From contig JAUJNH010000006.1 in assembly GCA_030448245.1 (NCBI GenBank), positions 15,788 to 79,787 of the forward strand: a DNA stretch of 64,000 bases, given 5' to 3'. This document shows, piece by piece, positions 1,744 to 29,367 of the stretch. The notes under the pieces are model-generated. The model was given only the letters and a program-made list of their open reading frames with translations. It was not told where the DNA came from and ran no database searches. This DNA comes from Acidimicrobiales bacterium (lineage in GTDB: Bacteria; Actinomycetota; Acidimicrobiia; Acidimicrobiales; JAUJNH01). Position numbers and translations under genes: made by a program. Each line of letters begins with the position of its first letter. The stretch's first letter is position 1.

Positions 1744-1791
1744 GGGACAGGGGGCGGTACTGTTCGTGGACATGTACCGGGGGAGGTCCAC

Positions 1792-8027: not shown

Positions 8028-8295
8028 CGCGCCTCTGGCGTGACGGCGGGTGGGCCCGGCGCCTGGCCATCTGGCTTCCCGAGGGACCGGACCTGGCAGG
8101 CGCGACGGAAGCGCCGCGTCGGATGGTGCGTTGGGACCGGGACGGGGTATCGTCTCGCCGGCGGCGGATGCCGAGGACTTGTCCCCCCGTGGGTGGGGTC
8201 GATGGGTCTCCGAACACCGCTGCGCAGAGAGCAGGACCGGAGGAGAGGCACTGGCCGAGGTAGGCACCCGCGTCGACGACCCGCACTGGGTCTCG

Positions 8296-11200: not shown

Positions 11201-11502
11201 GCCACGTCGTCCTCTACGACCGGTGGTGGAACCCGGCCGTCGAGGACCAGGCCCGTGACCGGGCCTGGCGCATCGGCCAGGAGCGCACCGTCGTCTCCCG
11301 GCGGTTCGTGTGCCCCGGCACCATCGACGAGCGGGTCGAGGAGGTCGTCGCCGGCAAGCGCCGCATCGCCGACCTCGTGCTGCCGGCCTCCTCGTCGCTG
11401 GGCGACCTCTCGGCCGAGCAGCTGCGGGTCGCCCTCGGCCTGCGCCCGGACCAGCTGGTGGCCGCCGAGGACGGCTCGACCGACGAGGAGGCTGCAGCAT
11501 GA
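8296..11502 (+). CDS. SNF2/RapA-family DEAD/DEAH-box helicase with long N-terminal SNF2-associated domain
   Basis: SNF2_N motifs LRSYQAEALGWL, DMGLGKT, DEAQNIKN, LTGTPVEN; helicase-C motifs GGTGLNLTEASHV, QARDRAWRIGQ; start ambiguous (first in-frame ATG used; GTG upstream possible). Confidence 0.85.
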   Translation: MVENEAAGEAAPGDLAALDGDRLRWLRVAQALLRDTEDALEEAGELPEPALRAQVGADLDAELRLLSAAVTRAAVAAGLGTLWQAPPPSRAAANGAASEAGTTDVAAVPAGPPRLQGSWVDGGLVLWAGGPGAKPLSAEEVVALAVSIDSTLDTGGWTRRKPVIVPGGEQAEAWAVPLDRILGWLVAVASTPPGEVVAPSLRWLGEVAAWAVELSALGRAVPILRRSTGSGPTARCRVRWTPALVDKGRLEAAAARRPGAAVITAPAEDAVVTTRSVLGSVVDTLFRHAASLARKIPEPPATTTAAEVGEAILAGLAGERFDAAERVAGMVEHRLNRWARPVTADVGPPLLVRLAEPDSEGVWLLSVHVPGAGAGGGEVPVEVAMGTSRGEERRAVEVAYGRLERLVPLVSRPGRARRGEVALSDTEAWELLSEVGPSLEAAGFSVQVPRLQRRSPSPVLRLFTKEGGSPQVGANQLVDVRWSVLIGDLELGAADIARLAAQAKPLVRTGGRWVALERADLAEAAAALAERSKVTQMTGGAVLREALGLEGSGPSGGIRVDGEGWAADLLREAGAFPPPPVDPPEAFRGTLRSYQAEALGWLTFLDRAGLGGCLALDMGLGKTATVLARILSTADQGPTLAVVPQAVLTNWAAEANRFTPRLRVAIHHGAARSDDVVRMAAHHDLVVTTFGTAIRDIDSLASVKWDRIVVDEAQNIKNPASETAKSLRRLPGRSRLALTGTPVENGLGDLWAILDFTNPGLVGARDAFVAGLSGKTLGGQGAEAALRALNGLLVFRRTKSEPEIGAELPDKIDELERCAMTAEQVGLYQAVLDKLVADPPTGDTKVRNGRVLAAITALKQICDHPAAYTHDDRPLAGRSGKLSRLEQVADAVRAAGEKLLIFTHFASWGERLADHLSDRYDEPVGCYHGGLARGARDKMIADWKARQGGGILVLSLKAGGTGLNLTEASHVVLYDRWWNPAVEDQARDRAWRIGQERTVVSRRFVCPGTIDERVEEVVAGKRRIADLVLPASSSLGDLSAEQLRVALGLRPDQLVAAEDGSTDEEAAA

Positions 11503-11614
11503 GCGGAGCAGCCGGCCGCCTCCGCCTGGACCGAGGGGCGGGGCCCGGCGCGGGACGATCCCCGAGGGAAGGCGGAGGCAGGAGGGCGGCTGCGGAGCGG
11601 CTGGAGGACACGGC

Positions 11615-11893
11615 ATGAGCGGGCGGCGCAGGAAGAAGCCGGCAGCGGTGGCCGCGGCCGACGCGGCGAAGTTCTGGGGGTCCGACGTCGACGAGCCCAT
11701 CGCCCCGTTCATCCGGCCGACCGCCGACCCCACGGCCCTGCTGCGGTCGCTCGGGCCCATCCCCCTCACCGTGCAGGACAAGCTGGCCGCGGCCCAGCTC
11801 CACGCCGTCTACGAGAAGGCCACCATGGTGGCCACGGCCGTGGCGTCGGCCGCCAGCCTGGTCGAGGTCGACGAGGGCAGTCCCGGGTCTTGA
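11615..11893 (+). CDS. Small hypothetical protein downstream of SNF2 helicase
   Basis: 92 aa, basic N-terminus (MSGRRRKKP), coding-like frame. Confidence 0.35.
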   Translation: MSGRRRKKPAAVAAADAAKFWGSDVDEPIAPFIRPTADPTALLRSLGPIPLTVQDKLAAAQLHAVYEKATMVATAVASAASLVEVDEGSPGS

Positions 11894-11967
11894 CCCCGGG
11901 AGCCGGATTCGGGAGCATGCGGTCGGGGAACCACGCTTCTCCATCGACAGGACCAGGAGGGGACCAC

Positions 11968-12333
11968 ATGCAAGGGATCCTGCGCCTCACGGCCACCGCT
12001 GCGATCGGAGGCCTGGTCCTCCTCGGCTGCGGGGGTGAGGGCAGCTCCGACAGCCCCGATGACGACGTGACCGTCAACAGCTGCGCCCCCACCCCCGGCG
12101 GGGGCAAGCCCGAGGCGGGCGGGGCGATCACCAACCGCACGACCAAGGCAAGCGGCTACACCTTCCGCGTGCGGTTCCTCGACCCGTCCGGCAACGAGGT
12201 GAGCATGGGGACGACGGCCGTCGCCAGGGTCGAGCCGAACGGCACCGCCACCTGGACGCTGCAGGGCGCCACCAGCGCGAACGGCCCCCTCACCTGCAGG
12301 GTGTCGAACGTCACCCGCACCGCCATCCCCTGA
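11968..12333 (+). CDS. Lipoprotein (hypothetical)
   Basis: AGGAGG RBS 8 nt upstream; signal peptide with lipobox LLGCGG. Confidence 0.5.
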   Translation: MQGILRLTATAAIGGLVLLGCGGEGSSDSPDDDVTVNSCAPTPGGGKPEAGGAITNRTTKASGYTFRVRFLDPSGNEVSMGTTAVARVEPNGTATWTLQGATSANGPLTCRVSNVTRTAIP

Positions 12334-12433
12334 CGCCTGAGCGTCGGAGGCAAACTCGTGTCTTAGGGGCCCTACGATCTGATGCGGGGCAAGATCACGC
12401 GATCTACCTGACCAAGCTGGGGGGCGCGGCCGG

Positions 12434-13762
12434 GTGCAGCGTGGGACGCGCGTCGGCGAGACTGCTCCGGTGGTTCGGCGACCGGACGCGTCCCGATCCG
12501 TCGGAATCCTGCGGGTCCTGGTGGGCGTCATCGCCGCCGCCACCGTCGCCGGCCTCGTCGTGCTGTGGCCGAAGGGCGACGCTCCAGACCTGTCGGCCAC
12601 CACCGAGGGGATCGGCTTCGTCGACGCCACCGTGACGGGCGTCGACATCGTCCCGTGCACCGACCCCTCGGAGGGCCTGCCGACCGAGTGCCAGTCGGTC
12701 GCGGTGGACATCACGTCGGGCTCCCGTCGGGGTGAGGCGGCCTCGTTCCTCAGTTCCCTGGTCGACTTCAGCGCCCCCGACTTCGCGCGAGGAGACCGGG
12801 TGGTGCTGGCCGAGAACGAGCTGGCCCCTCCCGAGTTCCGGTTCAGCTTCGTCGAGCTGCAGCGCGAGGTGCCCCTGCTCCTGCTCGGCGTGGCCTTCGT
12901 GGTGGTCGTCGTGGCGTTCGGGCGGTGGAAGGGGGTCCGGGCGCTCGCCGGTCTGGCCGCCAGCCTGGCGCTCATCGTCGGGTTCCTCCTGCCGTCGCTG
13001 CTGCGCGACAACAACCCGATTGCCGTCGCGCTGGTCACGGTCTCCGCGGTGGCCTTCGCGGCCCTCTACCTCACCCACGGCGTGTCGATTGCCACCACCG
13101 TCGCCCTGCTCGGCACGCTGGCGGCGATCGCTCTCACCACCTTCCTCGCCTGGATCGTGACCACGGCCGCGAACCTGACCGGGATCTCCGACCAGAGCTT
13201 CCAGGTGCTCCGGGTCACCGCAGAGGCGGTCGAGCCGCAGGGGATCCTGCTGGCGGGCATCGTGGTGGGGGTGCTGGGCGTGCTCGACGACGTGACCGTG
13301 ACCCAGGTGTCGGCGGTCGGCGAGCTGCGACGGGCCAACCCCAGCCTGCCCCGTGCGGCCCTCTACCGTTCCGCCATCCGCATCGGCCGCGACCACGTGG
13401 CGTCGGCGGTCAACACCCTCGTCCTGGCCTACGTGGGCGCCTCACTGGCCTTGATGCTGTTCTTCCTGCAGGAGGGGCGGTCGATCTCGCAGGTGGTGAG
13501 CCGGGAGATCGTGGCCATCGAGATCGTCCGCATGCTCGTGGGGAGCATCGGCCTGATCCTCTCGGTCCCCCTGACCACGGCTCTCGCCGTGGCGACGGGC
13601 GTCGCCGGCGGCGGCGGGCACGTCCACGGCGGCCGGCGGCGTCAGCGCGAGGCGGACGACGAGCGGGCCCGGGAGCGGGCCCGTCATGATCGCCGCCGCG
13701 CCCGTCGGCGGGCCACGGGCGAGGGCGCCGAGCCGAGGGTGGATCCACCGAAGGAGGCGTGA
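12434..13762 (+). CDS. YibE/F-family integral membrane protein
   Basis: 442 aa; N-terminal TM, extracytoplasmic domain, then six or more TM helices with YibE/F-like organisation. Confidence 0.65.
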   Translation: MQRGTRVGETAPVVRRPDASRSVGILRVLVGVIAAATVAGLVVLWPKGDAPDLSATTEGIGFVDATVTGVDIVPCTDPSEGLPTECQSVAVDITSGSRRGEAASFLSSLVDFSAPDFARGDRVVLAENELAPPEFRFSFVELQREVPLLLLGVAFVVVVVAFGRWKGVRALAGLAASLALIVGFLLPSLLRDNNPIAVALVTVSAVAFAALYLTHGVSIATTVALLGTLAAIALTTFLAWIVTTAANLTGISDQSFQVLRVTAEAVEPQGILLAGIVVGVLGVLDDVTVTQVSAVGELRRANPSLPRAALYRSAIRIGRDHVASAVNTLVLAYVGASLALMLFFLQEGRSISQVVSREIVAIEIVRMLVGSIGLILSVPLTTALAVATGVAGGGGHVHGGRRRQREADDERARERARHDRRRARRRATGEGAEPRVDPPKEA

Positions 13763-13899
13763 CTGCTCCCGACGACCATCGCCTCGGGCCGTGCGCGCCG
13801 GAACGGCGGAGAGCTCACCGACAGCCAGAGGTTCCCAGGGGGGAGGAGGATCAGGCCTCGCCAGCGGCTGCGGCGTCCGGCTCCCTCCTCCGTGAGGCG

Positions 13900-14544
13900 T
13901 CAGATGCCGTGGTCGGCGGCCCAGCGGATCAGCTCGGCCCGGCGGGAGAGGTGGAGCTTGCCCAGGATGTTGCGCACGTGGTTCTCGACCGTCTTCTCGG
14001 AGATGAACAGCTGGGCCCCCACCTGCTTGTAGGTGCAGCCGCGGGCCACCTGCTGGAGCACCTCCCGCTCGCGCTCGGAGAGCGGGTTGCGGCCCGTCTC
14101 CTTGCGGGCCACCCGCCGGAACTCGCCGAGCAGCATGGCGGCCAGCTTCGGTGAGAACGGCGGCTCGCCCTCGACGGCCAGCAGGAGGCGGCGCCGCAGC
14201 TCGGGGCCCGGCGTGTCCTTGGTGAGGTAGCCGAAGGCCCCCGAGGCGACCGCCTCCAGGAGGTCGGCCTCGTCCTCGGAGACGGTGAACATCACCACCT
14301 TCACCTGCTCGGCGAAGCGCGAGGCGACCTCCTTCACCACCCGCAGCCCGCCGCCTTCCGGCATGCGCAGGTCGCAGACGACCAGGTCGGGCCGGTGCTG
14401 CTCGATGGCGGCGATCGCCTCGGCGGCGTCGCCGGCCTCGGCCACCACCCGCAGCGGGTCACCCAGGTCGGCCCGGACGCCGGCCCGCACGGTCGGGTGG
14501 TCGTCGGCGATGACGACGGTGGTGGTGCGGACGATCTCGGTCAC
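13900..14544 (-). CDS. NarL/LuxR-family response regulator
   Basis: 214 aa from GTG; receiver domain (VVIADDHP, phospho-acceptor DLRMP) plus LuxR HTH (ISEKTVENHVRNILGKL). Confidence 0.85.
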   Translation of the reverse strand: MTEIVRTTTVVIADDHPTVRAGVRADLGDPLRVVAEAGDAAEAIAAIEQHRPDLVVCDLRMPEGGGLRVVKEVASRFAEQVKVVMFTVSEDEADLLEAVASGAFGYLTKDTPGPELRRRLLLAVEGEPPFSPKLAAMLLGEFRRVARKETGRNPLSEREREVLQQVARGCTYKQVGAQLFISEKTVENHVRNILGKLHLSRRAELIRWAADHGI

Positions 14545-14557
14545 GCGTGGCTCCTGC

Positions 14558-15658
14558 TCATCGGAGGTTGGCGGGGTGGGGGATGCAGACGCGGACCTCG
14601 CAGCCGTCGCCCACCGCGGTGACCACCTCGGCCGCACCCCCGGCGTCGCGGACCCGGCCGTGCACGCTGCCCGTGAGGCCGTGGCCGGCCGGGACGAGGG
14701 CGGGGTCGAAGCCGGTCCCGTCGTCGCGCACGGTGACCAGCAGGCCGTTGGTGGCGTCGTCGAGGTCGGCCAGCACCACGGCCGAGCGGGCGGCGCCGTG
14801 CTTGGCCGCGTTCGTGAGGGCTTCTCCCACCGCCGCGGCCACGGCCCGGACGGTGGCTGGCCCCGCCTCGGCGTCGGGGGTGACCGTGACCGAGACGTGC
14901 AGGTCGCCCCAGCGCTCCTCGACCGCCACGGCGGCGGCCCGCAGGGCGGCGGGCAGGGTGCCCGGATCACGGTCGTCGCCGAAGAGGTACAGGCGCAGGT
15001 CGCGCTCGGCCGAGCGGGCCACCTTGGCCACCTCCGGGTCGGTGGTCCGGCGTTCGACCACGGCCAGGGCCTGCAGCACGGTGTCGTGCAGGTCGGCGGC
15101 CACCCGCTCGCGAGCGCGGGCCTCGGCCAGGTCGTCCTGCGCCCTGCGCAGCAGCCGGCACGTGCCTCCGGTGACCGCGCCCACGACCATCCACACGGCG
15201 ATCGCCGAGAGCGACGCCAGCAGCTCGCGGCCCTCCCGTCCCACGGGAACGCCGGCGACGGCCTCGGCCGACAGCCGGGCCAGGCCGAGGGTGAAGCCGA
15301 CGCCGGCGGCCCACCAGGGACCCAGAGCGGCACCGGCCACCAGCAGCACGGCGATGGGGACGGCGCCGGCCAGGTGCTGGCCGGTGGCGCGGCTCTGCAG
15401 CACGAACCCGTCGGCGGCCACCAGGGCCACGACCAGCGCCACCTCGACCGCCACCGCCTCACGCCGCAGCGCCAGCCGCCAGCCGTCCCCGGCCGCCAGC
15501 CGATGGGCGATCCCGGCCCAGACGGCCATGGCCGCCAGGAGAGCAAGCGCCACGGCCGGTTGCCTGATCCGGTCGCGGTTCCCAACGGTGACGGCGAAGG
15601 CGAAGCCGAGCACGACCCAGCGCAGCCAAGCAGCCCCGACCAGGACGCTCCGTTCCAC
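14558..15658 (-). CDS. Sensor histidine kinase (HisKA_3/NarX-type)
   Basis: 366 aa; N-terminal TM helices, H-box ADLHDTVLQALAVV, HATPase_c motifs (TNAAKHG, DDGTGF, GHGLTG); 13 nt upstream of the regulator. Confidence 0.8.
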   Translation of the reverse strand: MERSVLVGAAWLRWVVLGFAFAVTVGNRDRIRQPAVALALLAAMAVWAGIAHRLAAGDGWRLALRREAVAVEVALVVALVAADGFVLQSRATGQHLAGAVPIAVLLVAGAALGPWWAAGVGFTLGLARLSAEAVAGVPVGREGRELLASLSAIAVWMVVGAVTGGTCRLLRRAQDDLAEARARERVAADLHDTVLQALAVVERRTTDPEVAKVARSAERDLRLYLFGDDRDPGTLPAALRAAAVAVEERWGDLHVSVTVTPDAEAGPATVRAVAAAVGEALTNAAKHGAARSAVVLADLDDATNGLLVTVRDDGTGFDPALVPAGHGLTGSVHGRVRDAGGAAEVVTAVGDGCEVRVCIPHPANLR

Positions 15659-15669
15659 GCCCCTACCTT

Positions 15670-16060
15670 GCTACGTCGCGGCGGTCCTTGCGACAGCGGG
15701 CTGCCGTCGAGCGGGTCGGCGGCAGCCGTGTCTCCCGAACTCACCGCCACCCGCGCCCGCCGGCCCAGGTCGGCGGCGGTGGCCTCGACGGCGGCTTCCC
15801 CCTCGGCGGGCCGCGGCGATCGCCGCCTCCAGCGCCGCCGTCGCGGCGGCGCGGTCGCCGGCCGCGAGGTGGTTCTCGGCCGCCCGCACCCACGCCCGCC
15901 CCTCCGGGACTGGGTGGCCGAGCGCGGCCCATGCGGTGGCGGCGGCCTCCTACGCGCCCGGGACGACGGCGCCCGAGAGCTCGGTGCGGTGGCCGATCGG
16001 GGCAGGCAGCGCCGTTCCGAGCGCGCAAGCCTGACGAGAAGTAGACATCCGTCGTGAGCC
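15670..16060 (-). pseudogene. Remnant of a TPR-containing (LuxR/LAL-type?) regulator with in-frame stop
   Basis: Minus-strand frame reads ...EAAATAWAALGHPVPEGRAWVRAAENHLAAGDRAAATAALEAAIAAA, interrupted by TAG and frame changes. Confidence 0.2.
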
Positions 16061-16649
16061 ACGTGACGAGCAGCGCGCCGCTACCGGAGTCAAGGGCGTC
16101 AGCTCAGCCGAGTTCACCGGCGCCGGCATCGCCTCGCCGCAGTACCCGAAGAACGGACCGGCATCGAAGAAGGGCCCCTACCGGGCCCAGGTCGCCCAGA
16201 AGGTCAACGACCTGCGCAGCGGCACCCATGCCAACGCCACCGCTGCCTGGGCTGTCGAAGCCTTCCGAAGGATCAGCGGCACCACCCTGGCAACGGCTCA
16301 CAACACGCCAGTTGCCCTCAACGCCATCCACCGACGCGCCGCACGATCAGCGTGACGGTCGACAAGAAGTCGGGGGCAATCACCCACCTCGGGTGACCCC
16401 GACGGCGCCCTTGTCTCGAGGCAGAACGTGGGACGCTCCGGAGACGTCGATGAGGACGGACACGTACGCGGGTATGTCCTCTACGATGAGCGATCCGCGT
16501 CGAGGGCTTCCGGGGTCGCCCCAGGACTGGGGGAAGCGCCTCTCTCCAGGAGCATCTCGGCCGCTGCTCGGAGCGCCATGAAGGCGCGGAAATGGCAAGG
16601 TGCGACCTTGCACACCTGAAGGCCAGGAGTACGTGCGAGGGTTGCCGCA

Positions 16650-17267
16650 ATGGTGCACGGACGGGAGCTCGAGGCCGGCTCGGCCCGGGCCATCGAACGT
16701 CGGACGTGGCGTGGCCGGCTCCAGGCCGCTGGTCGCGGCGCGCTGGGCGACCTGCTCGACCCTGTGGCGACCCGTGCGGCCGGCGGCGACGAGGAGGCCC
16801 TCGAGGACCTCATCTGGGCGGTGGACGAGCTGCACCTGGCCCGCCCGGCGGTTCGCCGCCTGGTGGTGCAGGAGTCCGACGCCGAGGAGGTGGAGCAGGA
16901 CGTGCTCGTGGCGGTGGCCGAGACCATTGCGGGGTTCCGGGGCGACGCCCGGTTCACGACGTGGCTCCACCAGCTGGCCCGCTTCAAGGCGATCGCCCAG
17001 CTCCGCCGGCGGAAGGAGTCCTTCGTGCTCGATGAAGAGATGGGAGACGCCGCCCGCATATCGTCCATCATCGCCACCCGCACCGTCCTCGACGAGGCCA
17101 TCGGGGGGCTGCCCGACCTCTACCGGGCCGCCGTCGTTCTGCGGGACGTCGAGCAGCGCCCCTACGCCGAGGTGGCGGAGCGGCTCGGCGTGAACATCAA
17201 CACGGTGAAGGCCCGGGTGGCCCGGGGCCGGGCCCTGGCCGCGTCCCGGTTGCGGGCCGGCCGGTGA
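16650..17267 (+). CDS. ECF-type RNA polymerase sigma factor
   Basis: Sigma-70 region 2 (FTTWLHQLARFKAIAQLRRRK) and region 4 (YAEVAERLGVNINTVKARVARGR). Confidence 0.75.
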   Translation: MVHGRELEAGSARAIERRTWRGRLQAAGRGALGDLLDPVATRAAGGDEEALEDLIWAVDELHLARPAVRRLVVQESDAEEVEQDVLVAVAETIAGFRGDARFTTWLHQLARFKAIAQLRRRKESFVLDEEMGDAARISSIIATRTVLDEAIGGLPDLYRAAVVLRDVEQRPYAEVAERLGVNINTVKARVARGRALAASRLRAGR

Positions 17268-18589
17268 GCCCTACCATTCCCCGGCGCCTGGGCCGCTACG
17301 AGGTCATCGAGCTGCTCGGCACCGGCGCCTTCGCCACCGTCTTCAGGGCCCGTGACGACCGGCTCGACGCCGACGTGGCCATCAAGGTGCTGGCCGAGAA
17401 CCACAGCTTCGATCCCGACCTGCGGGAGCGTTTCATCAGCGAGGGCCACCTCCTGCGTCGGGTCGACAGCCCCCACGTGGTCAAGGTCTTCGACCTTGGG
17501 GAGACCGTCGCCGGCCAGCCCTTCCTGGTGCTCGACCTCGCCGCCGGGGGAGACCTGGCCGCCCGACGCCGTGGCCTGGGAGGACACAGCCCGACGCTGG
17601 CCGACCTGCTGGCCGTGGCCGCCCAGGTGGCCGCCGCGCTGGGAGCGCTCCACGGTGAACGCGTCGTCCACCGGGACGTGACGCCCGGCAACCTCCTCAT
17701 CCACGGCCACGCCAACGGACGCCCTCCAACGGCCGTGTTGGGCGCCGGGGAGCGCCTGATGCTCGCCGACCTCGGGCTCTCGAAGGACCTGGCGGTTGCC
17801 TCCGGCCTCACCAAGGGGGCGGGGACGACCGGCTTCACCCCGCCCGAGCAGGGAGCGGGCAGCTGGGTGGACCCCCGGGCCGACATCTGGTCCGCCAGCG
17901 CCCTGCTCGTGTGGCTGATCCTCGGCGCTGCCCCCGACCCGGGCGGGGCTTGGCATGCCGAACTGACCGAGCGTGGCTGGCCCCCTGGCCTCCTGGACGA
18001 GCTGGGCCGGGGCTTGGCGAACGGGCCCGACGACCGCCATCAGACGGCGGAGGCGTGGGTGGCGGCCTTGCAGGAGGCGGCCCGGCCGCCGGTGGCGCCT
18101 CCACCGCCCGTCGACGGCAGCGTCCCTGCAGGCGAGAGCAGATGTGTAAGCCTTGGGCCTCCCGAGGAACGTCGTCCTCGGCGCCCTGTCCTGGTCGGCG
18201 GGCTGGGTCTGTTGGTGTTGCTCCTGGTGACCGGCGGCTGGTTGCTCGGGCGCGCCTCCGTGAGCGGCTCGCCGCCGTACGGACGGACCCGGACCGAGCG
18301 GCTGGCCGGGGGGCAGGTGAGGGCCACCGCCCGCCTGGGTCCTGCTCGTGTCGCCATCACCGGTCCGGAATCTGTTCGGGTGGGCCAGCGGGCTGAGTAC
18401 CGCTCCGAGACGAGTGGCGTGGTCGGGTACCGGTGGCTGGCTCCGGACGGCCGGTCGTATGAGGATGAGCCGACCTTGATCGTCGACCCCACCTCCGAGG
18501 GGACGGCGACGGTGCGCCTCCTGGGCCAGAGCGCCGAAGGTGACGTCGTGGTGGCCGAGGTACGCGTGACCGTAGGACGACGAACCTGA
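17264..18589 (+). CDS. Transmembrane Ser/Thr protein kinase
   Basis: Start overlaps sigma factor stop (ATGA); Hanks kinase motifs (GxGxxA loop GTGAFATV, AIK, HRDVTPGNLL, DLG, TPPE); one TM helix then ~110-aa extracytoplasmic C-terminal domain. Confidence 0.8.
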   Translation: MSPTIPRRLGRYEVIELLGTGAFATVFRARDDRLDADVAIKVLAENHSFDPDLRERFISEGHLLRRVDSPHVVKVFDLGETVAGQPFLVLDLAAGGDLAARRRGLGGHSPTLADLLAVAAQVAAALGALHGERVVHRDVTPGNLLIHGHANGRPPTAVLGAGERLMLADLGLSKDLAVASGLTKGAGTTGFTPPEQGAGSWVDPRADIWSASALLVWLILGAAPDPGGAWHAELTERGWPPGLLDELGRGLANGPDDRHQTAEAWVAALQEAARPPVAPPPPVDGSVPAGESRCVSLGPPEERRPRRPVLVGGLGLLVLLLVTGGWLLGRASVSGSPPYGRTRTERLAGGQVRATARLGPARVAITGPESVRVGQRAEYRSETSGVVGYRWLAPDGRSYEDEPTLIVDPTSEGTATVRLLGQSAEGDVVVAEVRVTVGRRT

Positions 18590-18718
18590 GCCGCTTCCTG
18601 CAACGGGCGTGCGCAGGCCGACAGGGTGCCATGCCCCCGGTGCGCGCGGGCGCGGCCCCTCCAGCGGACCTCCCGTGGTCTCGAGCCGGTCGCTGATCCC
18701 CCTAGGCTTCGGGCTGGC

Positions 18719-19153
18719 GTGGAGAGGTTCTTGTCAGTGGCGGTCCTGTTGGCGCTGGCCGGCTTGGTTCTCTTGGTCACTGGTTTCCGCCGCCTGCGCC
18801 GCAGCCGGTCCTTCCGGACCCGGGCGGCGCGGGCCACCGTCGTGGTCATGGAGCAGCGCTTGCAGGCCCCGGCGGCGCTTCCGGGTCTGCCTACTTCCCG
18901 GTGGCGGTTCCAGACGGCCGACGGCGGCACCGTGACTTTCATCTCCGACATCGGCTCGATGCCGGCTCATGCTCCCGGGAGCGGCATCGGAGTCCTCTAC
19001 GACCCGGACCGACCGGCTGATGCCCGCATCGACTCCCCCCTCCGGACGAGCGGACGAGCCGCTCTCGAGCTGATCCTCGCGGCGTGCATGCTCGGCGGGA
19101 GCCTGACGGTCCTCGCCGCCCGATGGGCGATCTCCCTGCTGCCTGCTCCGTGA
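18719..19153 (+). CDS. DUF3592-like membrane protein
   Basis: TM helix, beta-rich middle, C-terminal TM, as in DUF3592; start uncertain (GTG at 18719 chosen). Confidence 0.4.
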   Translation: MERFLSVAVLLALAGLVLLVTGFRRLRRSRSFRTRAARATVVVMEQRLQAPAALPGLPTSRWRFQTADGGTVTFISDIGSMPAHAPGSGIGVLYDPDRPADARIDSPLRTSGRAALELILAACMLGGSLTVLAARWAISLLPAP

Positions 19154-19348
19154 GCTCGCCGGATGAGGCCTACGTCGTGCGCCGCCGGCTGCCGTGGCGG
19201 GTGGGCCTGCGGGGCACGGTGGGGCGTGGGTGTGATCGTGCTGGTGATCTCACCGGCGGGCGGCAACGGTGCACCAGGGTCTCAGGGCCATCGTCGAAGA
19301 CCCGGCTGATCCCTGCCCGTGGCTCCCGGGCTACGACGACCGATCGTC

Positions 19349-19402
19349 GGCTGGACCCTGGATCACCACCAGCTCGGCTGGACCCTGGATCACCACCAGC
19401 TG
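19349..19402. repeat. Perfect 27-bp tandem duplication (GGCTGGACCCTGGATCACCACCAGCTS x2)
   Basis: Direct reading of the intergenic region upstream of the 19532 lipoprotein. Confidence 0.7.
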
Positions 19403-19531
19403 GCCCAGGCGGTGCGGGCGTTCGCGCCCCAGGTCGAGGTCCTCCACCTGCAGCAGGCGCCGCGAACATGAGTTTCTTGCAACCGATCCGCCGCACGGCG
19501 CGACCAACGTGGTGAACCAGGAGGAACGCCA

Positions 19532-20119
19532 ATGACCATGCCAACCATCTCCCACCGACTCCTCGCCCTCGGAGCGGCGCTCACCGTCGCCCTGACGGCC
19601 GGCGCCTGCTCGAACCCCTTGGAAGAGAAGGCCGACACCACGAGCGGCGTCGCCACCACCGCGGTGGTCGGGACCACCACCAAGGAGGCATCCAGCACCC
19701 AGGGATCACAACCGCCGAGCACCGCGGAACGGGCCGCCATCGCTACCAGCGGTGACCCGGCGAGCACAGGAGGGGGCATCGAGATCACCTCCCTCAAACG
19801 GGACTCCAACCAGCTCGTGACCCTTCGGTTCTTCCTGGTGAACAAGGGCACCAAGAACGTCACGGTATCCAGCCGCTTCGGGGCCGGTGGCACCCGGGAT
19901 GTCTCCGAGGTCTACCTCGTCGACCCCGACGGCCTCAAGAAGTACCTCACCGTGCAGGACACCGATGGGGGCTGCCTGTGCAGCACCAACCTGTTCGACG
20001 TGAAGCCTGGTGACCGGCTCGAGCTCTTCGCCACCTTCGCGGCGCCGCCCCCGGACGTGAAAGCGGTGACGGTGGTGGTGCCCTCGTTCCAGCCCGTCAA
20101 CGACGTCCCCCTGTCATGA
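19532..20119 (+). CDS. Lipoprotein, Thr/Ser-rich linker plus beta-rich domain (DUF4352-like)
   Basis: AGGAGG RBS upstream; lipobox LTAGAC; C-terminal ~110-aa globular domain. Confidence 0.55.
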   Translation: MTMPTISHRLLALGAALTVALTAGACSNPLEEKADTTSGVATTAVVGTTTKEASSTQGSQPPSTAERAAIATSGDPASTGGGIEITSLKRDSNQLVTLRFFLVNKGTKNVTVSSRFGAGGTRDVSEVYLVDPDGLKKYLTVQDTDGGCLCSTNLFDVKPGDRLELFATFAAPPPDVKAVTVVVPSFQPVNDVPLS

Positions 20120-20694
20120 TCCGCCGGTTGCTGGCCGTTGCCGTGCTGCTCACGGTCCTTGTGCCGGGCGAGGCGTCCGCCCAACAACAGGTGAAGCCCA
20201 AGGTGCTCGACCTCAAGCTGCGGGTCGTCGACCTCCGGCTGCGGGTCGAGAGCCCACAGGGCGTGCGGGGCGAGTCTCCCTCCCAGGTCGACTTCGCCAT
20301 CGCCGGCGACGTGCTCTTCGCGTTCAACGAGGCGACCCTGACGCCGGCGGCGGCGGCAATCCTGTCCGGCCTGGCCAACGAGATCCGGGCCCAGGCAGCC
20401 GGCCCGGTCAAGATCGTGGGGTACACCGACGCGGTGGGGGAGGACGCCTTCAACCTCGACCTGTCCCGGCGGCGGGCAAAGGCGGTAGAAGCGGAGTTGC
20501 GCCGCCTCCTGGCGGGCGCAGTGTCGGAGTTCACCACCGACGGCCGGGGGGAAGCCGACCCGGTGGCGCCCAACAAGAACCAAGACGGCTCCGACAACCC
20601 GCAGGGCCGGGCTCGGAACCGTCGGGTGACCGCTACCTACGCCAAACGCTCCGCTTCCTCAGCGCCGACGACGTCATCGGCGAAGGGGCCATGA
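20116..20694 (+). CDS. OmpA/MotB C-terminal domain protein
   Basis: ATGA overlap with upstream lipoprotein; signal peptide; OmpA_C motifs (FAFNEATLT, VKIVGYTDAVG, NLDLSRRRA, NRRV). Confidence 0.7.
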   Translation: MIRRLLAVAVLLTVLVPGEASAQQQVKPKVLDLKLRVVDLRLRVESPQGVRGESPSQVDFAIAGDVLFAFNEATLTPAAAAILSGLANEIRAQAAGPVKIVGYTDAVGEDAFNLDLSRRRAKAVEAELRRLLAGAVSEFTTDGRGEADPVAPNKNQDGSDNPQGRARNRRVTATYAKRSASSAPTTSSAKGP

Positions 20695-21512
20695 CGGGCG
20701 GCACCACTCGGCCGCACGGCCGAGCGTCGGAGCGGGCTTCCAGCCGGCCGCACCGGTCGCCCACCCGGGTGCCCGAGGCGGTCGAGGCCAAGATCTGCCG
20801 TGTGCGGCAAGCTGAGAAGGTCGGCGCCGACCGCCTCGCCATCCACCTGGGCGCTCCGGCCTCGACGATCCACCGCGTCCTGGTTCGCCACGACCTCAAC
20901 CGGCTCGACCGGCAGACCGCCCAACCGATCCGCCGCTACGAACGGGCCCGCCCCGGCGAGTTGGTCCACGTCGACGTCAAGAAACTCGGGAAGATCCCGC
21001 CCGGCGGCGGCCACAAGATCCACGGCCGGGCCGCCACCAGCAGCGGCGGCCGGCGCCGGCTGCGGATCGGCTACGCCTACCTCCACACCGCCATCGACGA
21101 CCACAGCCGCCTGGCCTACACCGAGGTCCTCGCCGACGAACAAGGCCGCACCTGCGCCGGCTTTTGGCGTCGAGCCAACGCCTGGTTCGCCGCCCGGGGC
21201 GTGATCGTCGAGCGGGTCCTGACCGACAACCACTTCTCCTACCGGGGACTGCTGTTCAACCAGGCGCTGGCCGACACCAGGATCGTGCACAAGTTCTGCC
21301 GGCCCTACCGGCCCCAGACCAACGGCAAGGTCGAGCGGTTCCACCGCACCCTCCTCGAGGAATGGGCCTACGTCCGCCCCTACACCCGAGAAGCCGACCG
21401 CACCCGCGCACTTGCGCACTGGCTCCACCGCTACAACCATCACCGAGTGCACACCGCCATCGGAGACGCCCCCATCACCCGCGTCACCAACCTCCCCGCG
21501 AAACACAGCTAG
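20691..21512 (+). mobile_element. IS481-family transposase (integrase core), N-terminally truncated
   Basis: rve domain with DDE residues (HVDVKK...D, ...TDNHFSY, ...E); only the second HTH (SRPHRSP) is present and the reading frame begins inside the OmpA gene, so ~60 N-terminal aa are missing. Confidence 0.7.
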
Positions 21513-21527
21513 TCGGCGCAGACCGAA

Positions 21528-21546
21528 CTGCCGATCTGCTCGGCAG
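21528..21546 (+). terminator. Hairpin CTGCCGA-TCTGC-TCGGCAG just after the transposase stop
   Basis: 7-bp perfect inverted repeat; coordinates approximate (+/-2). Confidence 0.3.
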
Positions 21547-21896
21547 CTTCTTGCGACCGGTCGAAACCGAGTCGGCACTACGTCCTGCAAGCTGGTCTGG
21601 CGGGCGAGCGAACGGGGCGCCCAGAACTTTCGGCCGCCGACCGCAACGTCGTCGCCGACGTACCTGTCGGGCGCCCGGGAACGGCACCAGCCGAGCGCTC
21701 GGTATCGATCGGGCTCTCAACTCGTGCTTGGCGCTGGCTTACCAGGGTCCGCGACGGGGCGTGGACCGTCCTCTGGGATGGGTTGTCGGTCCGGGAGCTT
21801 CGTAGCCGGCTTCCTGGGGTCGTGGCGGCGAGCGAACAGCTGGGCTTGCACGGGCTGTGGGGGAGGGCGATCGCGAGCTGCCCGCCTGCTCCAACG

Positions 21897-22960
21897 TCAT
21901 GGCTTTGGCGCGATCCTCAGTATCCGGTCGTCGTCGCTCGCTGGGCTGCCCCGGCCGTCCCGGTTGGAGGTGGTGAGGTAGACGGCGCCGTCGGGCCCGA
22001 CGGCCACGTCTCGCAGCCGCCCGTGGTCGTCCTTGTAGAGGACCTCTTCGTCGGTCACTCTGCCGTCGCCTCCCAGGGTCAGTCGGTGCAGGCTCTCGCC
22101 TCGGAGCGTGACGAACAGGAGCGAGTCCTTCCACTGGGGGATGAGGTCAGCCGAGTACACGACGCAGCCGGCAGGAGCGACCGCCGGGGTGTAGTTCCTG
22201 ATCCCGTTGCCCGACGTGGCTGGCCATCCGCCGTCAAAGCCCTCTCGGAGCAGGTTGACCTCGTCCCTGCCGCTCGGTCCGTGCTCGGTGGCGAACAGCC
22301 TTCCGTCGGGTGCGAAGCACAGCCCCTGCACGTTGCGGTGGCCCTTGCTGAACACCGTCACGTTGCCTGAGTCGGGATTGACCCGTAGGACCTTGCCGTT
22401 GAGGCTGCCGACGTCGGCAGCGAGGTCAGGTTGGGCAGCGTCACCGGTGGAGGCGTAGAGCTGGCCGTCAGGACCCAGGCGAAGGCGTCCACCATCGTGG
22501 ATGGCTGCTCTGGTGATGCCTTCCACCAAGACCTTCTGCGACCCGTCTGGTTCGAAGCGCACGATCCGGTTGTCGCGCTCGGTGGTGTACATCACGAACA
22601 TCCGCCCCCGCTGGTCGATCTCCAGTCCCATCAGCCCACCCTCGCCCGACTCGGAAACGCCGTCGATCTGCCGCGACGTCCCGCCGGCGCGGCCCAGGCG
22701 ACCGGAGCGCTCGGTGTACCAAGGGCGCCCTGAGGGTCCCAAGCCAACGACCACACCGTGTCAAGGTTGCGGGCAACCTCGGTGACGGCCAACGGCATCG
22801 GGCGCCCGGTCGCCGCGGCCGTCGTGCTTGGGAGGCCGCTCGGTTCGGCGCTCAGGCTCGTGGTCGTGTTCGTCGACACCGACGTCCGTTGGCCAGAGCC
22901 GCAGGCGGTGGCGACGACGAGGAGGGCCATCACCCAGAGGGAACGCGAAGGCATGGTCAC
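21897..22960 (-). pseudogene. PQQ-dependent sugar dehydrogenase (soluble glucose/sorbosone dehydrogenase family) lipoprotein, frameshifted
   Basis: N-terminal part (lipobox VVATACGSG; NLDTVWSLAWDPQGAL) in ORF 22631..22960 and the rest (RPWYTERSGRL, beta-propeller repeats) in ORF 21897..22754; frame change near 22735. Confidence 0.6.
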
Positions 22961-27793: not shown

Positions 27794-27858
27794 GGGGCGT
27801 GGGTCTACCCCCCGCGGCGCGTGCGGAACCCCGGGCGTGGCTTTGCCAGGATGCGGCG

Positions 27859-29367
27859 GTGCTGCTGTCCGAGGTCGTGGCCACCTCCGCCGCCGTCACC
27901 TCGACGGCGAGCCGCTCGGCCAAGGTGGCGGCCCTGGCCGACCTGCTGCGCCGCCTCGCCCCCGACGAGGCCGAGGTGGTGGTGGCCGCCCTGGCCGGCG
28001 AGGCCCGCCAGGGGCGCATCGGCGTGGGGTGGGCCACGGTCCGGGCCCTCGACGTGCCGGCCGCAGCCGAGGCGTCGCTCACCGTCGCCAACCTCGACCA
28101 GGCCCTCGACGACTTGGCCGCCACGGTCGGCACCGGATCACAGGCTGCCCGGGCCAGCGGGCTCGACCGCCTGCTGCGGGCGGCCACCGCCGACGAGCAG
28201 GTCTTCCTGCGTCGGCTGCTGCTGGGCGAGCTGCGCCAGGGGGCGCTCGAGGGCGTGGCCGCCGATGCCGTGGCCCGAGCCGCCGGCGTGCCCCTGGCGC
28301 TGGTCAGGCGGGCCGCCATGCTGGCCGGCGACCTCCCCTCAGTGGCCGCTACCGCGCTGGCCGGCGGCGCCGAGGCCCTGGCGGGGATCGGCCTGGAGGT
28401 CGGACGGTTCGTCCAGCCGATGCTGGCCGCCCCCGGTGACGCGATCACCGACGCGCTGCCCGCCCACGGTGGCCCCGCCTCGGTCGAGCAGAAGCTGGAC
28501 GGGGCCCGGCTCCAGGCCCATCGGTCGGGGGCGCTGGTCCGGCTGTTCACCCGGAACGGCAACGACGTGACCAGCCGCCTGACGGCGGTGGCCGACCTGC
28601 TCCTGGCCCTGCCCTGCACGTCGGTCGTGCTCGACGGCGAGGTCATCGGCCTGGCCGAGGACGAGCGGCCCGACCGCTTCCAGGACACCATGTCCCGATT
28701 CGGCCGCCACGTCGGCGAGCACGGCGCCACGCTTGCGGTGCGCTTCTTCGACTGCCTCCACCTCGACGGCGACGACCTGCTCGACGAGCCGCTGTCGATC
28801 CGGTCCGAAGCCCTCGAGCGGGTGGCGGGAGCCTGGCGGGTGCCTTTGGTGCGGACGGCCGAGCGGGCCGAGGCCGAGGCCTTCCTGGCCGCCTCGCTCG
28901 CCGCCGGGCACGAGGGGGTGGTGGTGAAGGACGTGGCGTCGACCTACGAGGCCGGCCGCCGGGGTGGGGCTTGGCGCAAGGTGAAGCCGGTGCGCACCCT
29001 CGACCTGGTCGTCCTGGCCGCCGAGTGGGGGAGCGGGCGGCGCCGGGGCTGGCTGTCGAACCTCCACCTGGGCGCCCGCGACCCCGAGGGCGGGCCGCCG
29101 ATCATGGTGGGCAAGACCTTCAAGGGCCTGACCGACCAGCTGCTGCGCTGGCAGACCGACGCGCTGCTCGAGCGGGAGGTGCGGCGCGAGGGCCTCACCG
29201 TCGTCGTGGAGCCCGAGCTGGTGGTCGAGATCGCCCTCGACGGCGCCCAGCGCTCGACCCGCTACCCGGGCGGCGTGGCGCTGCGCTTCGCCCGGGTCCG
29301 CCGCTACCGCGATGACAAGGGACCGGCCGACGCCGACACGATCGACGCCGTCCGCGCCCTCCTGTAG
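27859..29367 (+). CDS. ATP-dependent DNA ligase
   Basis: GTG start (VLLSEVVATSAAV typical N-terminus); adenylation motif I EQKLDG, motifs III-VI; OB-fold C-terminus. Confidence 0.85.
   Translation: MLLSEVVATSAAVTSTASRSAKVAALADLLRRLAPDEAEVVVAALAGEARQGRIGVGWATVRALDVPAAAEASLTVANLDQALDDLAATVGTGSQAARASGLDRLLRAATADEQVFLRRLLLGELRQGALEGVAADAVARAAGVPLALVRRAAMLAGDLPSVAATALAGGAEALAGIGLEVGRFVQPMLAAPGDAITDALPAHGGPASVEQKLDGARLQAHRSGALVRLFTRNGNDVTSRLTAVADLLLALPCTSVVLDGEVIGLAEDERPDRFQDTMSRFGRHVGEHGATLAVRFFDCLHLDGDDLLDEPLSIRSEALERVAGAWRVPLVRTAERAEAEAFLAASLAAGHEGVVVKDVASTYEAGRRGGAWRKVKPVRTLDLVVLAAEWGSGRRRGWLSNLHLGARDPEGGPPIMVGKTFKGLTDQLLRWQTDALLEREVRREGLTVVVEPELVVEIALDGAQRSTRYPGGVALRFARVRRYRDDKGPADADTIDAVRALL

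What the first reader, a model, noticed from the sequence alone, without database searches (positions are those of the whole stretch)
16650..18589. ECF sigma factor translationally coupled to a transmembrane Ser/Thr kinase instead of a classical anti-sigma factor
The kinase ATG overlaps the sigma stop (ATGA). No ZAS/RskA-type anti-sigma gene follows. Instead there is a Hanks kinase with one TM helix and a ~110-aa extracytoplasmic sensor domain. ECF groups regulated by phosphorylation rather than by sequestration are known but sparsely characterised, so this is a candidate phospho-regulated ECF pair.
Basis: partly seen in the sequence, partly recalled or inferred. Interest (0 to 1): 0.6.

Follow-up and report, generated by a model that had tools for sequence, protein, structure and literature searches.

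The report
ECF sigma factor paired with kinase
An alternative sigma factor gene overlaps by four bases the gene for a membrane Ser/Thr kinase, and this pair is conserved across two actinobacterial classes as an untested variant of the known kinase-controlled sigma factors.

Summary
The sigma stop and kinase start overlap as GTGA, not ATGA.

**What is there**
- 16650-17267 encodes a 205-aa ECF sigma factor.
- 17264-18589 encodes a 441-aa Hanks kinase with one TM helix and a PKD-like ectodomain of about 110 aa.
- No ZAS/RskA anti-sigma gene is nearby.

**Not a chance adjacency**
- All 17 family loci examined have sigma followed directly by the kinase. They come from Acidimicrobiia and Nitriliruptoria and have unrelated flanks.
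- An envelope lipoprotein and an OmpA-domain protein usually follow.
- 147 unrelated ECF loci have no adjacent kinase.

**How it differs from the known cases**
- The sigma keeps the acidic sigma2.2 motif (DAEE), so it is not ECF43-like (EcfP, EcfK).
- It carries a near-invariant R-I-S-S motif at the linker/sigma4 boundary (119 of 120 homologs). In this sample the motif occurs only in kinase-linked sigmas.
- The closest described group is ECF283, which is itself only predicted.
- The kinase keeps the beta3 Lys, HRD Asp, Asn and DLG Asp, but the whole clade lacks the catalytic-loop Lys.

**Verdict**
The most likely mechanism, inferred only, is that the kinase phosphorylates the Ser-Ser dyad to control sigma activity. 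I rate this a new variant of a known kind, of moderate interest.

The parts
16650..17267 (+). ECF (group 4) sigma factor, 205 aa, with sigma2 and sigma4 domains. The N-terminal ~35 aa are not conserved.
   Evidence: Pfam Sigma70_r2 and Sigma70_r4_2. TIGR02937 above its cut-off, no equivalog model passed. 766 homologs, mostly Acidimicrobiales. Best solved relatives are SigW and Mtb SigE.
16878..16889 (+). Sigma2.2 acidic motif D77-A-E-E, the 'DAED' position that contacts the RNAP beta' clamp helices.
   Evidence: D77 in 116/120, E/D79 in 117/120 and E/D80 in 120/120 homologs. ECF43 members replace this motif by S/T (PMC8999054).
17055..17066 (+). R136-I-S138-S139 motif at the end of the sigma2-sigma4 linker, just before the first sigma4 helix. 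Candidate phospho-acceptor dyad.
   Evidence: R136, S138 and S139 each in 119/120 homologs, I137 in 114/120. The S/T-S/T dyad is kept in nearly all of 150 representatives at 50% identity. Present in 19 of 170 ECF loci, and all 19 have an adjacent kinase.
17264..17267 (+). GTGA overlap of the kinase start codon with the sigma stop codon (translational coupling).
   Evidence: Read directly from the sequence. NTGA overlap in 9 of 10 family loci.
17264..18589 (+). Membrane Hanks-type Ser/Thr kinase, 441 aa: cytoplasmic kinase domain (res ~10-270), Pro-rich linker, one TM helix, ectodomain.
   Evidence: Pfam Pkinase 1.7e-29. Best solved relative is Mtb PknB, 7.5e-24. 370 homologs at E<=1e-10.
17669..17692 (+). 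Catalytic loop H-R-D-V-T-P-G-N. The Lys of the canonical HRDxKxxN is Thr here.
   Evidence: Among 120 homologs HRD and Asn are 120/120, but the Lys position is S40/T37/A33/N8/K2. The distant relative L008 (kinase at +1) and the kinases at -1 in L010-L012 keep the Lys.
18179..18247 (+). Single transmembrane helix (res ~306-328), with positive charges on the N-terminal side.
   Evidence: Kyte-Doolittle 19-residue window above 1.6 only here, apart from one helix inside the kinase domain.
18284..18586 (+). Extracytoplasmic PKD-like (Ig-like beta-sandwich) domain, res ~341-441.
   Evidence: AF2 model with mean pLDDT 91.8. Foldseek top hits are ColG/ColH collagenase PKD domains, E 1e-5, target-normalised TM 0.7-0.78. 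Pfam PKD (PF00801) recorded on two homologs.
18626..19153 (+). DUF3592-like two-TM membrane protein, inserted between kinase and lipoprotein only in this lineage. The real start may be 18735. Probably not part of the conserved module.
   Evidence: Weak Pfam DUF3592 match, 3.3e-5. No counterpart in the other family loci. The near-identical assembly calls the gene from the later start.
19532..20119 (+). Conserved +2 gene of the module: lipoprotein with a C-terminal beta-sandwich, an invariant lipobox Cys26 and a CxC pair (C148, C150). No Pfam family.
   Evidence: Alignment A3. AF2 gives pLDDT above 90 for res 70-195. Only weak fold matches, to YxkC, MPT63 and DUF4352-like beta-sandwiches. A profile of A3 finds it after the kinase in L002, L003, L165, L166, L167 and L171.
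20116..20694 (+). Conserved +3 gene: secreted OmpA_C-like peptidoglycan-binding protein. Its start overlaps the lipoprotein stop.
   Evidence: Pfam OmpA 5.5e-15. An OmpA-domain gene follows the kinase in most family loci.

Best explanation
This is a sigma/kinase signalling pair embedded in a four-gene envelope module: ECF sigma, membrane Hanks kinase, beta-sandwich lipoprotein and OmpA-like peptidoglycan-binding protein.

**Proposed mechanism**
1. The PKD-like ectodomain of the kinase senses an envelope or extracellular cue. This step is inferred.
2. The cytoplasmic kinase domain then phosphorylates its co-translated partner sigma. The most likely target is the near-invariant Ser138-Ser139 dyad at the boundary between the sigma2-sigma4 linker and sigma4. 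This step is also inferred.
3. Phosphorylation changes how the sigma engages core RNA polymerase, and so switches transcription of the operon and other targets. The direction of the effect is unknown.

**How it differs from ECF43**
Unlike the ECF43 sigmas EcfP and EcfK, this sigma keeps the acidic sigma2.2 motif. The switch is therefore not the restoration of a missing negative charge in sigma2.2. It resembles the linker phosphosite of EcfK (T106) and the prediction made for group ECF283.

**Shown here**
- Gene structure and domain content.
- Conserved coupling and synteny.
- Motif conservation, and its exclusive association with kinases in this sample.
- Retention of the catalytic triad.
- The PKD fold of the ectodomain.

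**Inferred**
- Kinase activity.
- The sigma as its substrate.
- The phosphosite.
- The regulon.
For: 1. Sigma followed directly by the kinase in 17 of 17 family loci from Acidimicrobiia (Iamia, Aquihabitans, Microthrixaceae) and Nitriliruptoria (Egibacter, Nitriliruptoraceae), with unrelated flanks.
2. A 4-bp NTGA stop/start overlap in 9 of 10 loci checked.
3. Sigma and kinase divergence are correlated across loci (Mantel r = 0.77, 0 of 5000 permutations reach it).
4. The R-I-S-S motif is the most conserved stretch of the linker, which ECF sigmas usually do not conserve: 119/120 for each of R136, S138 and S139. The dyad is kept in nearly all of 150 diverse representatives.
5. Among 170 ECF loci, all 19 with the dyad have an adjacent kinase and 147 have neither (Fisher p = 1.3e-21).
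6. More distant relatives keep the motif although their kinase sits at -1 (L010, L011), so the association survives gene rearrangement.
7. The kinase retains beta3 Lys (118/120), alphaC Glu (119/120), HRD, Asn143 and the DLG Asp (all 120/120), and conserved activation-loop S180, T183 and T188 (118, 117 and 120 of 120). By the usual definition it is not a pseudokinase (PMC12599244).
8. No anti-sigma domain is encoded nearby.
9. Precedent: PknT phosphorylates EcfP, and PknS phosphorylates EcfK, including linker residues T104-S110 (PMC8999054; PMC13147305). ECF283 is described as actinobacterial, kinase-linked, with an S/T-rich end of the linker.
Against: - No experiment and no structural model of the complex supports phosphorylation here.
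- The Ser-Ser dyad could be conserved for a structural or RNAP-contact reason.
- The acidic sigma2.2 motif is retained, so the sigma may be intrinsically competent and need no activation.
- The clade-wide loss of the catalytic-loop Lys could mean weak or altered catalysis.
- No cognate PP2C phosphatase or FHA protein was found in the ORFs I scanned with Pfam between positions 4 and 42401.
- No shared promoter motif was found, so autoregulation and the regulon remain unsupported.
- The loci behind the association statistic are not phylogenetically independent.
Confidence: 0.55

Rival explanations
1. The membrane kinase acts mainly as an anti-sigma factor. Its cytoplasmic kinase domain docks the sigma and holds it at the membrane. 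Release comes from a conformational change or autophosphorylation triggered through the PKD ectodomain, and sigma phosphorylation is secondary or absent.
For: - The kinase occupies the +1, translationally coupled position where single-pass anti-sigma factors normally sit.
- It has the same topology as a typical anti-sigma factor: N-terminus inside, one TM helix, small ectodomain.
- The sigma keeps the acidic sigma2.2 motif, so it should bind core RNAP by default and need a negative regulator.
- The catalytic-loop Lys is lost across the clade.
Against: - The beta3 Lys, alphaC Glu, HRD Asp, Asn, DLG Asp, Gly-rich loop and activation-loop Ser/Thr are all under strong purifying selection, which argues for catalysis.
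- No anti-sigma domain or helical sigma-binding segment is detectable.
- The invariant Ser-Ser dyad is better explained as a phospho-acceptor.
- In relatives with the kinase at -1 the coupling is lost but the motif is kept.
Confidence: 0.2
2. The kinase is co-transcribed with the sigma but does not act on it. It is an output of the sigma regulon, or a parallel sensor that phosphorylates other substrates. Sigma activity is set by transcription, proteolysis or an unlinked regulator.
For: - Hanks kinases are usually pleiotropic.
- The whole four-gene module could be a sigma-dependent envelope operon.
- The sigma looks intrinsically competent, with its acidic motif retained.
Against: - The adjacency holds in all family loci, across two classes and through a rearrangement from +1 to -1.
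- In this sample the linker dyad is found only in kinase-linked sigmas.
- Paralogous modules within one genome each keep their own kinase (L005 and L006).
Confidence: 0.2
3. The adjacency is a chance product of gene packing in a GC-rich genome, or an ORF-calling artefact.
For: High-GC genomes produce many spurious long ORFs, and 4-bp overlaps are common in compact genomes.
Against: - Both ORFs have strong domain matches.
- Both show the codon-position GC pattern of real genes: third-position GC 0.92 and 0.86.
- Each has hundreds of homologs.
- The pair recurs in 17 of 17 family loci, against none of the 147 unrelated ECF loci that lack the Ser-Ser dyad (4 other ECF loci also carry an adjacent kinase).
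Confidence: 0.01

Closest known systems
ECF283 (Casas-Pastor et al. 2021 reclassification; predicted only, no studied member)
   Same: Actinobacterial ECF group with no anti-sigma factor and a transmembrane protein kinase next to the sigma gene. [quoted passage not shown] Relatives at 40-42% identity (L010, L011) have the kinase at -1, as described for ECF283, and share the R-[IV]-S-S motif.
   Different: Here the kinase is at +1 with a 4-bp overlap, not at -1 or +2. Formal assignment with the ECF Hub HMMs could not be run. The lineage is Acidimicrobiia/Nitriliruptoria. The catalytic-loop Lys is lost in this clade, whereas the kinases at -1 keep it.
ECF43: EcfP/PknT (Vibrio parahaemolyticus) and EcfK/PknS (Xanthomonas citri)
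   Same: An ECF sigma with a single-pass Hanks kinase at +1 and no anti-sigma factor. Direct sigma phosphorylation activates transcription. EcfK is also phosphorylated in the sigma2-sigma4 linker (T104, T106, S108, S110), and T106 matters for function.
   Different: The defining ECF43 trait is replacement of the acidic DAED motif in sigma2.2 by S/T, and it is absent here (DAEE retained). The ectodomain is PKD-like, not TPR. The taxa are Proteobacteria versus Actinomycetota. The PknS authors describe it as a typical Hanks-type kinase, whereas this clade lacks the catalytic-loop Lys.
Mycobacterium tuberculosis SigH / PknB (with anti-sigma RshA)
   Same: An actinobacterial ECF sigma phosphorylated by a Hanks kinase on two linker Thr residues (T106, T110), as cited in PMC13147305. 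PknB is the closest solved relative of this kinase domain.
   Different: SigH has a classical ZAS anti-sigma factor (RshA). PknB is not encoded next to sigH and is pleiotropic. The role of SigH phosphorylation is unknown.
Planctomycete kinase-linked ECF groups (ECF59-62, ECF217)
   Same: ECF groups that lack anti-sigma factors and have a conserved neighbouring protein kinase.
   Different: Different phylum and different kinase architectures (WD40, TPR or zinc-finger fusions). No sequence relationship was shown here.

Membership tests
ECF (group 4) sigma-70 factors | Only sigma2 and sigma4 domains joined by a short linker, with no sigma1.1 or sigma3. | tested here: met
   Pfam r2 (67-122) and r4_2 (147-195) in a 205-aa protein. 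TIGR02937 scores 61.9 against a cut-off of 42.9.
ECF43 | Acidic DAED motif of sigma2.2 replaced by Ser/Thr (the phosphosite). | tested here: not met
   D77-A-E-E in the window. D77 in 116/120, E/D80 in 120/120 homologs.
ECF43 | Single-pass protein kinase encoded at +1, with no anti-sigma factor. | tested here: met
ECF283 | Actinobacterial origin. | tested here: met
   Homologs come from Acidimicrobiales, Iamia, Aquihabitans, Egibacter and Nitriliruptoraceae.
ECF283 | Transmembrane protein kinase at -1 (or +2 in subgroup 5). | tested here: not met
   The kinase is at +1 in all 17 close family loci. Only relatives at 40-42% identity (L010-L012) have it at -1.
ECF283 | [quoted passage not shown] | tested here: met
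   R-I-S-S-x-I-A-T-R-T at res 136-145, immediately before sigma4.
ECF283 | Score above threshold with the group HMM (ECF Hub / ECF Finder). | not testable with these tools
Only the written description was read.
ECF283 | Predicted promoter with CCTT at -35 and AG at -10. | tested here: inconclusive
   The motif carries too little information to test. No shared dyad rose clearly above shuffled controls in 13-17 upstream regions.
Hanks-type (eukaryote-like) Ser/Thr protein kinase | Beta3 Lys, alphaC Glu, HRD Asp, catalytic-loop Asn and DFG Asp. | tested here: met
   K41 in 118/120, E60 in 119/120, and D138, N143 and D169 (as DLG) each in 120/120.
Hanks-type (eukaryote-like) Ser/Thr protein kinase | Catalytic-loop Lys of HRDxKxxN. 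| tested here: not met
   HRDVTPGN in the window. Across the family the position is S40/T37/A33/N8/K2.
Bacterial pseudokinase | Loss of at least one of beta3 Lys, HRD Asp or DFG Asp (definition in PMC12599244). | tested here: not met
   All three are retained.
Classical sigma/anti-sigma pair (ZAS, RskA, RsdA) | A neighbouring gene with an anti-sigma domain. | tested here: not met
   No such Pfam or NCBIfam hit in the ORFs flanking the sigma gene (12434-22754) or in the larger ORFs scanned elsewhere between positions 4 and 42401.
PKD domain (ectodomain of the kinase) | PKD-type Ig-like beta-sandwich fold. | tested here: met
   AF2 pLDDT 91.8. Top Foldseek hits are ColG/ColH PKD domains, rmsd 1.9-2.5 A over about 80 residues. 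No Pfam PKD hit on the window protein itself.

The most novel reading that the evidence does not exclude
This family may use a second, mechanistically distinct way of controlling an ECF sigma factor by phosphorylation.

- The sigma is fully equipped to bind core RNAP, because its acidic sigma2.2 motif is intact.
- It would instead be gated through a Ser-Ser dyad at the N-cap of sigma4, either negatively or positively.
- The kinase that does this has dispensed with the catalytic-loop Lys.
- That kinase may double as the membrane tether, so that it is kinase and anti-sigma factor in one protein.
- The lipoprotein and OmpA-like partner would feed a cell-wall signal to its PKD ectodomain.
Probability: 0.25. 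Interest if true: 0.65.

Novelty: new variant of a known kind. Interest (0 to 1): 0.45.

Why it matters
Direct control of sigma factors by Ser/Thr phosphorylation has been shown experimentally for only one ECF group, ECF43. There the phosphate replaces a missing acidic residue in sigma2.2. Several other kinase-linked groups are only predicted, and reviews note that they may work differently because they keep the acidic motif (PMC8999054).

This family offers a sharply defined test case for that open point:
- It has one candidate phosphosite, a near-invariant Ser-Ser dyad.
- The gene pair is obligatorily coupled.
- The kinase has a small ectodomain of known fold.
- Two conserved envelope proteins are candidate inputs or outputs.

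It also provides a natural clade of Hanks kinases that keep every catalytic residue except the catalytic-loop Lys. That is useful for asking what this Lys contributes in bacterial kinases. The organisms are poorly studied environmental Actinomycetota (Acidimicrobiia and Nitriliruptoria).

Tried and rejected
1. **Promoter search.** Exact dyad enumeration over 13 upstream regions gave a maximum of 6 sequences sharing a dyad, against 5-8 in shuffles. A gapped Gibbs sampler over 17 regions gave information content 11.1, against 9.1-10.3 in shuffles, with sites at scattered positions. Neither is convincing, so I make no claim about autoregulation.
2. **Collection scans.** They yielded only about 10 family loci. 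The roughly 150 unrelated ECF loci became the negative control.
3. **ECF group assignment.** The ECF Hub HMMs are not available. The Iyer 2020 and Huang 2015 papers are not held. Only the ECF283 text from the bioRxiv supplement could be used.
4. **DUF3592 ORF (18626-19153) as a hidden anti-sigma factor.** Rejected. It has no anti-sigma domain, it is absent from all other family loci, and its N-terminal CPRC lies upstream of the start called in the near-identical assembly.
5. **Upstream two-component system (13900-15658, minus strand) as part of the module.** Rejected, because it is not conserved next to the pair in any other locus.
6. **Pseudokinase reading.** Rejected on the standard definition.
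7. **Lipoprotein and OmpA as a fused protein in some lineages.** The ~400-aa OmpA proteins in L001, L169 and L172 do not match the lipoprotein profile, so this is an alternative architecture and not a fusion.
8. **Rfam and terminator/promoter consensus scans** of the locus found nothing informative.
9. **P0207** is an ORF joining sigma4 to the kinase. It may be a frameshift or a gene-calling artefact, so I did not use it as evidence.
Full report
**1. Observation**

The two ORFs exist as described.
- 16650-17267 (+) encodes a 205-aa protein with Sigma70_r2 and Sigma70_r4_2 domains. In NCBIfam it passes only the generic ECF model TIGR02937 and no equivalog model.
- 17264-18589 (+) encodes a 441-aa protein with a Pkinase domain at residues 12-224. 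Its closest solved relative is M. tuberculosis PknB.
- The junction reads ...GCCGGTGAGCC... The kinase starts at GTG 17264-17266 and the sigma stops at TGA 17265-17267.
- GTG 17264 is the only start codon in that ORF upstream of the kinase domain.
- A hydropathy scan shows one membrane helix at about residues 306-328, preceded by RRPRRP. That puts the kinase domain in the cytoplasm and about 113 residues outside.
- Both genes have the codon-position GC pattern of real genes in this genome of roughly 70% G+C or more.

**2. The pair is a conserved unit**

The sigma has 766 detected homologs, those named being Acidimicrobiales or unspecified Actinobacteria. The kinase has 370 homologs at E<=1e-10. 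A profile search of 1.84 billion cluster representatives finds 134 clusters at E<=1e-30.

I obtained genomic context for 17 non-redundant family loci. They are the window plus L001-L003, L005-L009, L085, L165-L167 and L169-L172.
- They come from Acidimicrobiia (Iamia sp., Aquihabitans sp. G128, Microthrixaceae and others) and Nitriliruptoria (Egibacter rhizosphaerae, Nitriliruptoraceae ZYF776).
- In all 17 the sigma gene is followed directly, on the same strand, by an orthologous kinase. The genes further out differ everywhere.
- The 4-bp NTGA stop/start overlap is present in 9 of the 10 loci checked. In L002 it is followed by an apparent frameshift, and the tenth locus has an 8-bp overlap.
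- Pairwise divergence of sigma and kinase is correlated across loci (Mantel r = 0.77, 0 of 5000 permutations reach it).
- One MAG carries two paralogous copies, and each has its own kinase (L005 and L006).
- As a control, the same collection scans returned about 150 unrelated ECF loci. Of these, 147 have no kinase within 1.5 kb.

**3. The larger module**

Downstream of the kinase most loci carry one of two arrangements.
- In L002, L003, L165, L166, L167, L171 and the window there is a lipoprotein of about 190-280 aa followed by a protein of about 190 aa with an OmpA_C domain.
- In L001, L169 and L172 there is a single OmpA_C protein of about 400 aa.

In the window these genes are 19532-20119 and 20116-20694.
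- The lipoprotein has an invariant lipobox Cys, an invariant CxC pair and no Pfam family.
- Its C-terminal 125 residues model confidently as a beta-sandwich. The fold matches are only weak, to YxkC, MPT63 and DUF4352-like proteins.
- A DUF3592-like membrane ORF (18626-19153) lies between the kinase and the lipoprotein in this lineage only.
- The two-component system upstream, on the minus strand, is not conserved with the pair.

**4. The sigma factor**

An alignment of 27 homologs and of the top 120 homologs shows two things.

First, the acidic sigma2.2 motif is retained: D77 in 116/120, E/D79 in 117/120 and E/D80 in 120/120. In ECF43 this motif is replaced by S/T, and phosphorylation supplies the missing charge (PMC8999054; ECF43 text). 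This sigma is therefore not ECF43-like.

Second, the sigma2-sigma4 linker ends in R136-I-S138-S139-x-I-A-T-R. ECF linkers are normally variable, but here R136, S138 and S139 are each present in 119 of 120 homologs.
- Alignments to SigW and Mtb SigE place this stretch between sigma2 and the first helix of sigma4.
- The S/T-S/T dyad persists in nearly all of the 150 most similar representatives at 50% identity.
- It also persists in relatives at 40-42% identity whose kinase lies upstream at -1 (L010 and L011).
- Across 170 ECF loci, 19 have the hydrophobic-S/T-S/T motif at the aligned position and all 19 have an adjacent kinase. Another 147 have neither, and 4 have a kinase with a variant motif or none (Fisher p = 1.3e-21). 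The loci are related to each other, so this p-value overstates independence.

**5. The kinase**

Among 120 homologs the catalytic residues are nearly invariant:
- the Gly-rich loop;
- beta3 Lys (118/120) and alphaC Glu (119/120);
- H-R-D, the catalytic-loop Asn and the D-L-G Asp (all 120/120);
- the activation-loop residues S180, T183 and T188 (118, 117 and 120 of 120).

By the accepted definition, loss of the beta3 Lys, HRD Asp or DFG Asp, it is not a pseudokinase (PMC12599244).

The Lys of HRDxKxxN is replaced throughout the clade: S in 40, T in 37, A in 33, N in 8 and K in only 2. In the window the loop reads HRDVTPGN. The most divergent +1 member (L008) and the kinases at -1 in L010-L012 still have the Lys, so it was lost inside this lineage while everything else stayed constrained.

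From general knowledge, not tested here: this Lys contacts the gamma-phosphate in Ser/Thr kinases. It is absent from tyrosine kinases (HRDLAARN) and from aminoglycoside and choline kinase-like enzymes. Its loss is therefore compatible with phosphotransfer but marks an unusual active site.

The ectodomain (residues about 341-441) models with mean pLDDT 91.8. It matches the PKD domains of clostridial collagenases best.

**6. Mechanism**

The best-supported reading has three steps.
1. The PKD ectodomain receives an envelope cue, possibly involving the co-encoded lipoprotein and the peptidoglycan-binding OmpA-like protein.
2. The kinase phosphorylates the Ser-Ser dyad of its co-translated sigma.
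3. This alters the sigma-RNAP interaction.

The precedent is EcfK, whose linker residues T104-S110 are phosphorylated by PknS. Phospho-T106 of EcfK is modelled in a basic pocket of beta' (PMC13147305). Casas-Pastor et al. made the same prediction for ECF283. Every step after the anatomy is inference.

The main rival keeps the anatomy but makes the kinase the anti-sigma factor, acting as a membrane tether. That rival is attractive because the sigma retains its acidic core-binding motif and because of where the kinase gene sits and how the protein is oriented in the membrane. A second rival is that the kinase is only co-expressed with the sigma. Chance adjacency is excluded.

**7. Comparison and novelty**

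Kinase-linked ECF sigmas have been known as a class since the original ECF classification of Staron et al. 2009 (from my own knowledge of that paper; it is cited in the supplement text seen), and ECF43 has been studied experimentally. This pair fails the defining ECF43 test.

It matches the written description of ECF283 in taxon, in having a TM kinase, in the S/T-rich end of the linker and in lacking an anti-sigma factor. It differs in gene order, and I could not test it against the group HMM.

I found no paper on an experimentally studied actinobacterial pair of this type.

I therefore rate it a new variant of a known kind. It has four features of its own:
- retained acidic motif together with an invariant Ser-Ser dyad;
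- a catalytic loop without the Lys;
- a PKD ectodomain;
- a conserved lipoprotein/OmpA partner pair.

Interest is moderate. The finding is not surprising in principle, but it is a clean system for testing a non-ECF43 mode of sigma phosphorylation.

Noticed in passing
window 20691-21512 (breakpoint at ~20738): An IS481-like transposase ORF (rve and rve_3 domains) follows the OmpA gene. The window is 99.8% identical to contig JAUJOI010000014.1 of GCA_030447705.1 over 8648-20738, and the identity stops exactly there. This suggests an insertion or rearrangement that differs between two closely related assemblies.
   Followed up: partly
window 15659-16649: The ~1 kb upstream of the sigma gene has no codon-phase GC signal and lower G+C (0.66-0.69 against 0.72-0.77 in the genes). 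No gene is called there in the near-identical assembly, and there is no Rfam hit. This is an unusually long gap for this genome.
   Followed up: partly
window 18626-19153: A DUF3592-like two-TM protein sits between the kinase and the lipoprotein in this lineage only. The near-identical assembly has a second DUF3592 gene after the OmpA gene, at the point where the window has the transposase.
   Followed up: partly
window 17669-17692 and family loci: The catalytic-loop Lys of the Hanks motif HRDxKxxN is lost across the clade (S/T/A/N instead), while all other catalytic residues stay invariant. Some members read HRDLAPRN, which resembles the tyrosine-kinase loop HRDLAARN.
   Followed up: partly
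L005 and L006 (MAG JBOGHK01, Acidimicrobiales): One genome carries two paralogous sigma-kinase modules. In L006 the OmpA-domain gene lies upstream of the sigma instead of downstream.
   Followed up: no
P0207 (ENA contig of 5550 bp): A 483-aa predicted protein joins the sigma4 part of a family sigma in frame to the kinase. It is either a natural fusion or a frameshift or gene-calling artefact.
   Followed up: no
L001 8124-9347, L169 7044-8276, L172 7143-8369: In some lineages the lipoprotein plus OmpA pair is replaced by a single ~400-aa OmpA_C protein. Its N-terminal part does not match the lipoprotein profile.
   Followed up: partly
representatives ranked 120-150: Two low-ranking representatives carry an acidic residue at the second position of the Ser-Ser dyad (DVAE and SVAD in place of RISS). 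These may be natural phosphomimetic variants. Their gene context was not examined.
   Followed up: no
L165 8692-9873 (Aquihabitans sp. G128): A PAS-SpoIIE (PP2C-type phosphatase) gene lies directly after the module on the opposite strand. No phosphatase was seen next to the module in the other loci or among the window ORFs scanned with Pfam between positions 4 and 42401.
   Followed up: no
window 4-2919, 8050-11502, 27799-29367, 39102-41288: Other genes in the window are hydrogenase maturation hypF and hypD, an SNF2/DUF3670 helicase, an ATP-dependent DNA ligase, and a 728-aa protein with a sortase domain. None is linked to the sigma-kinase module.
   Followed up: no
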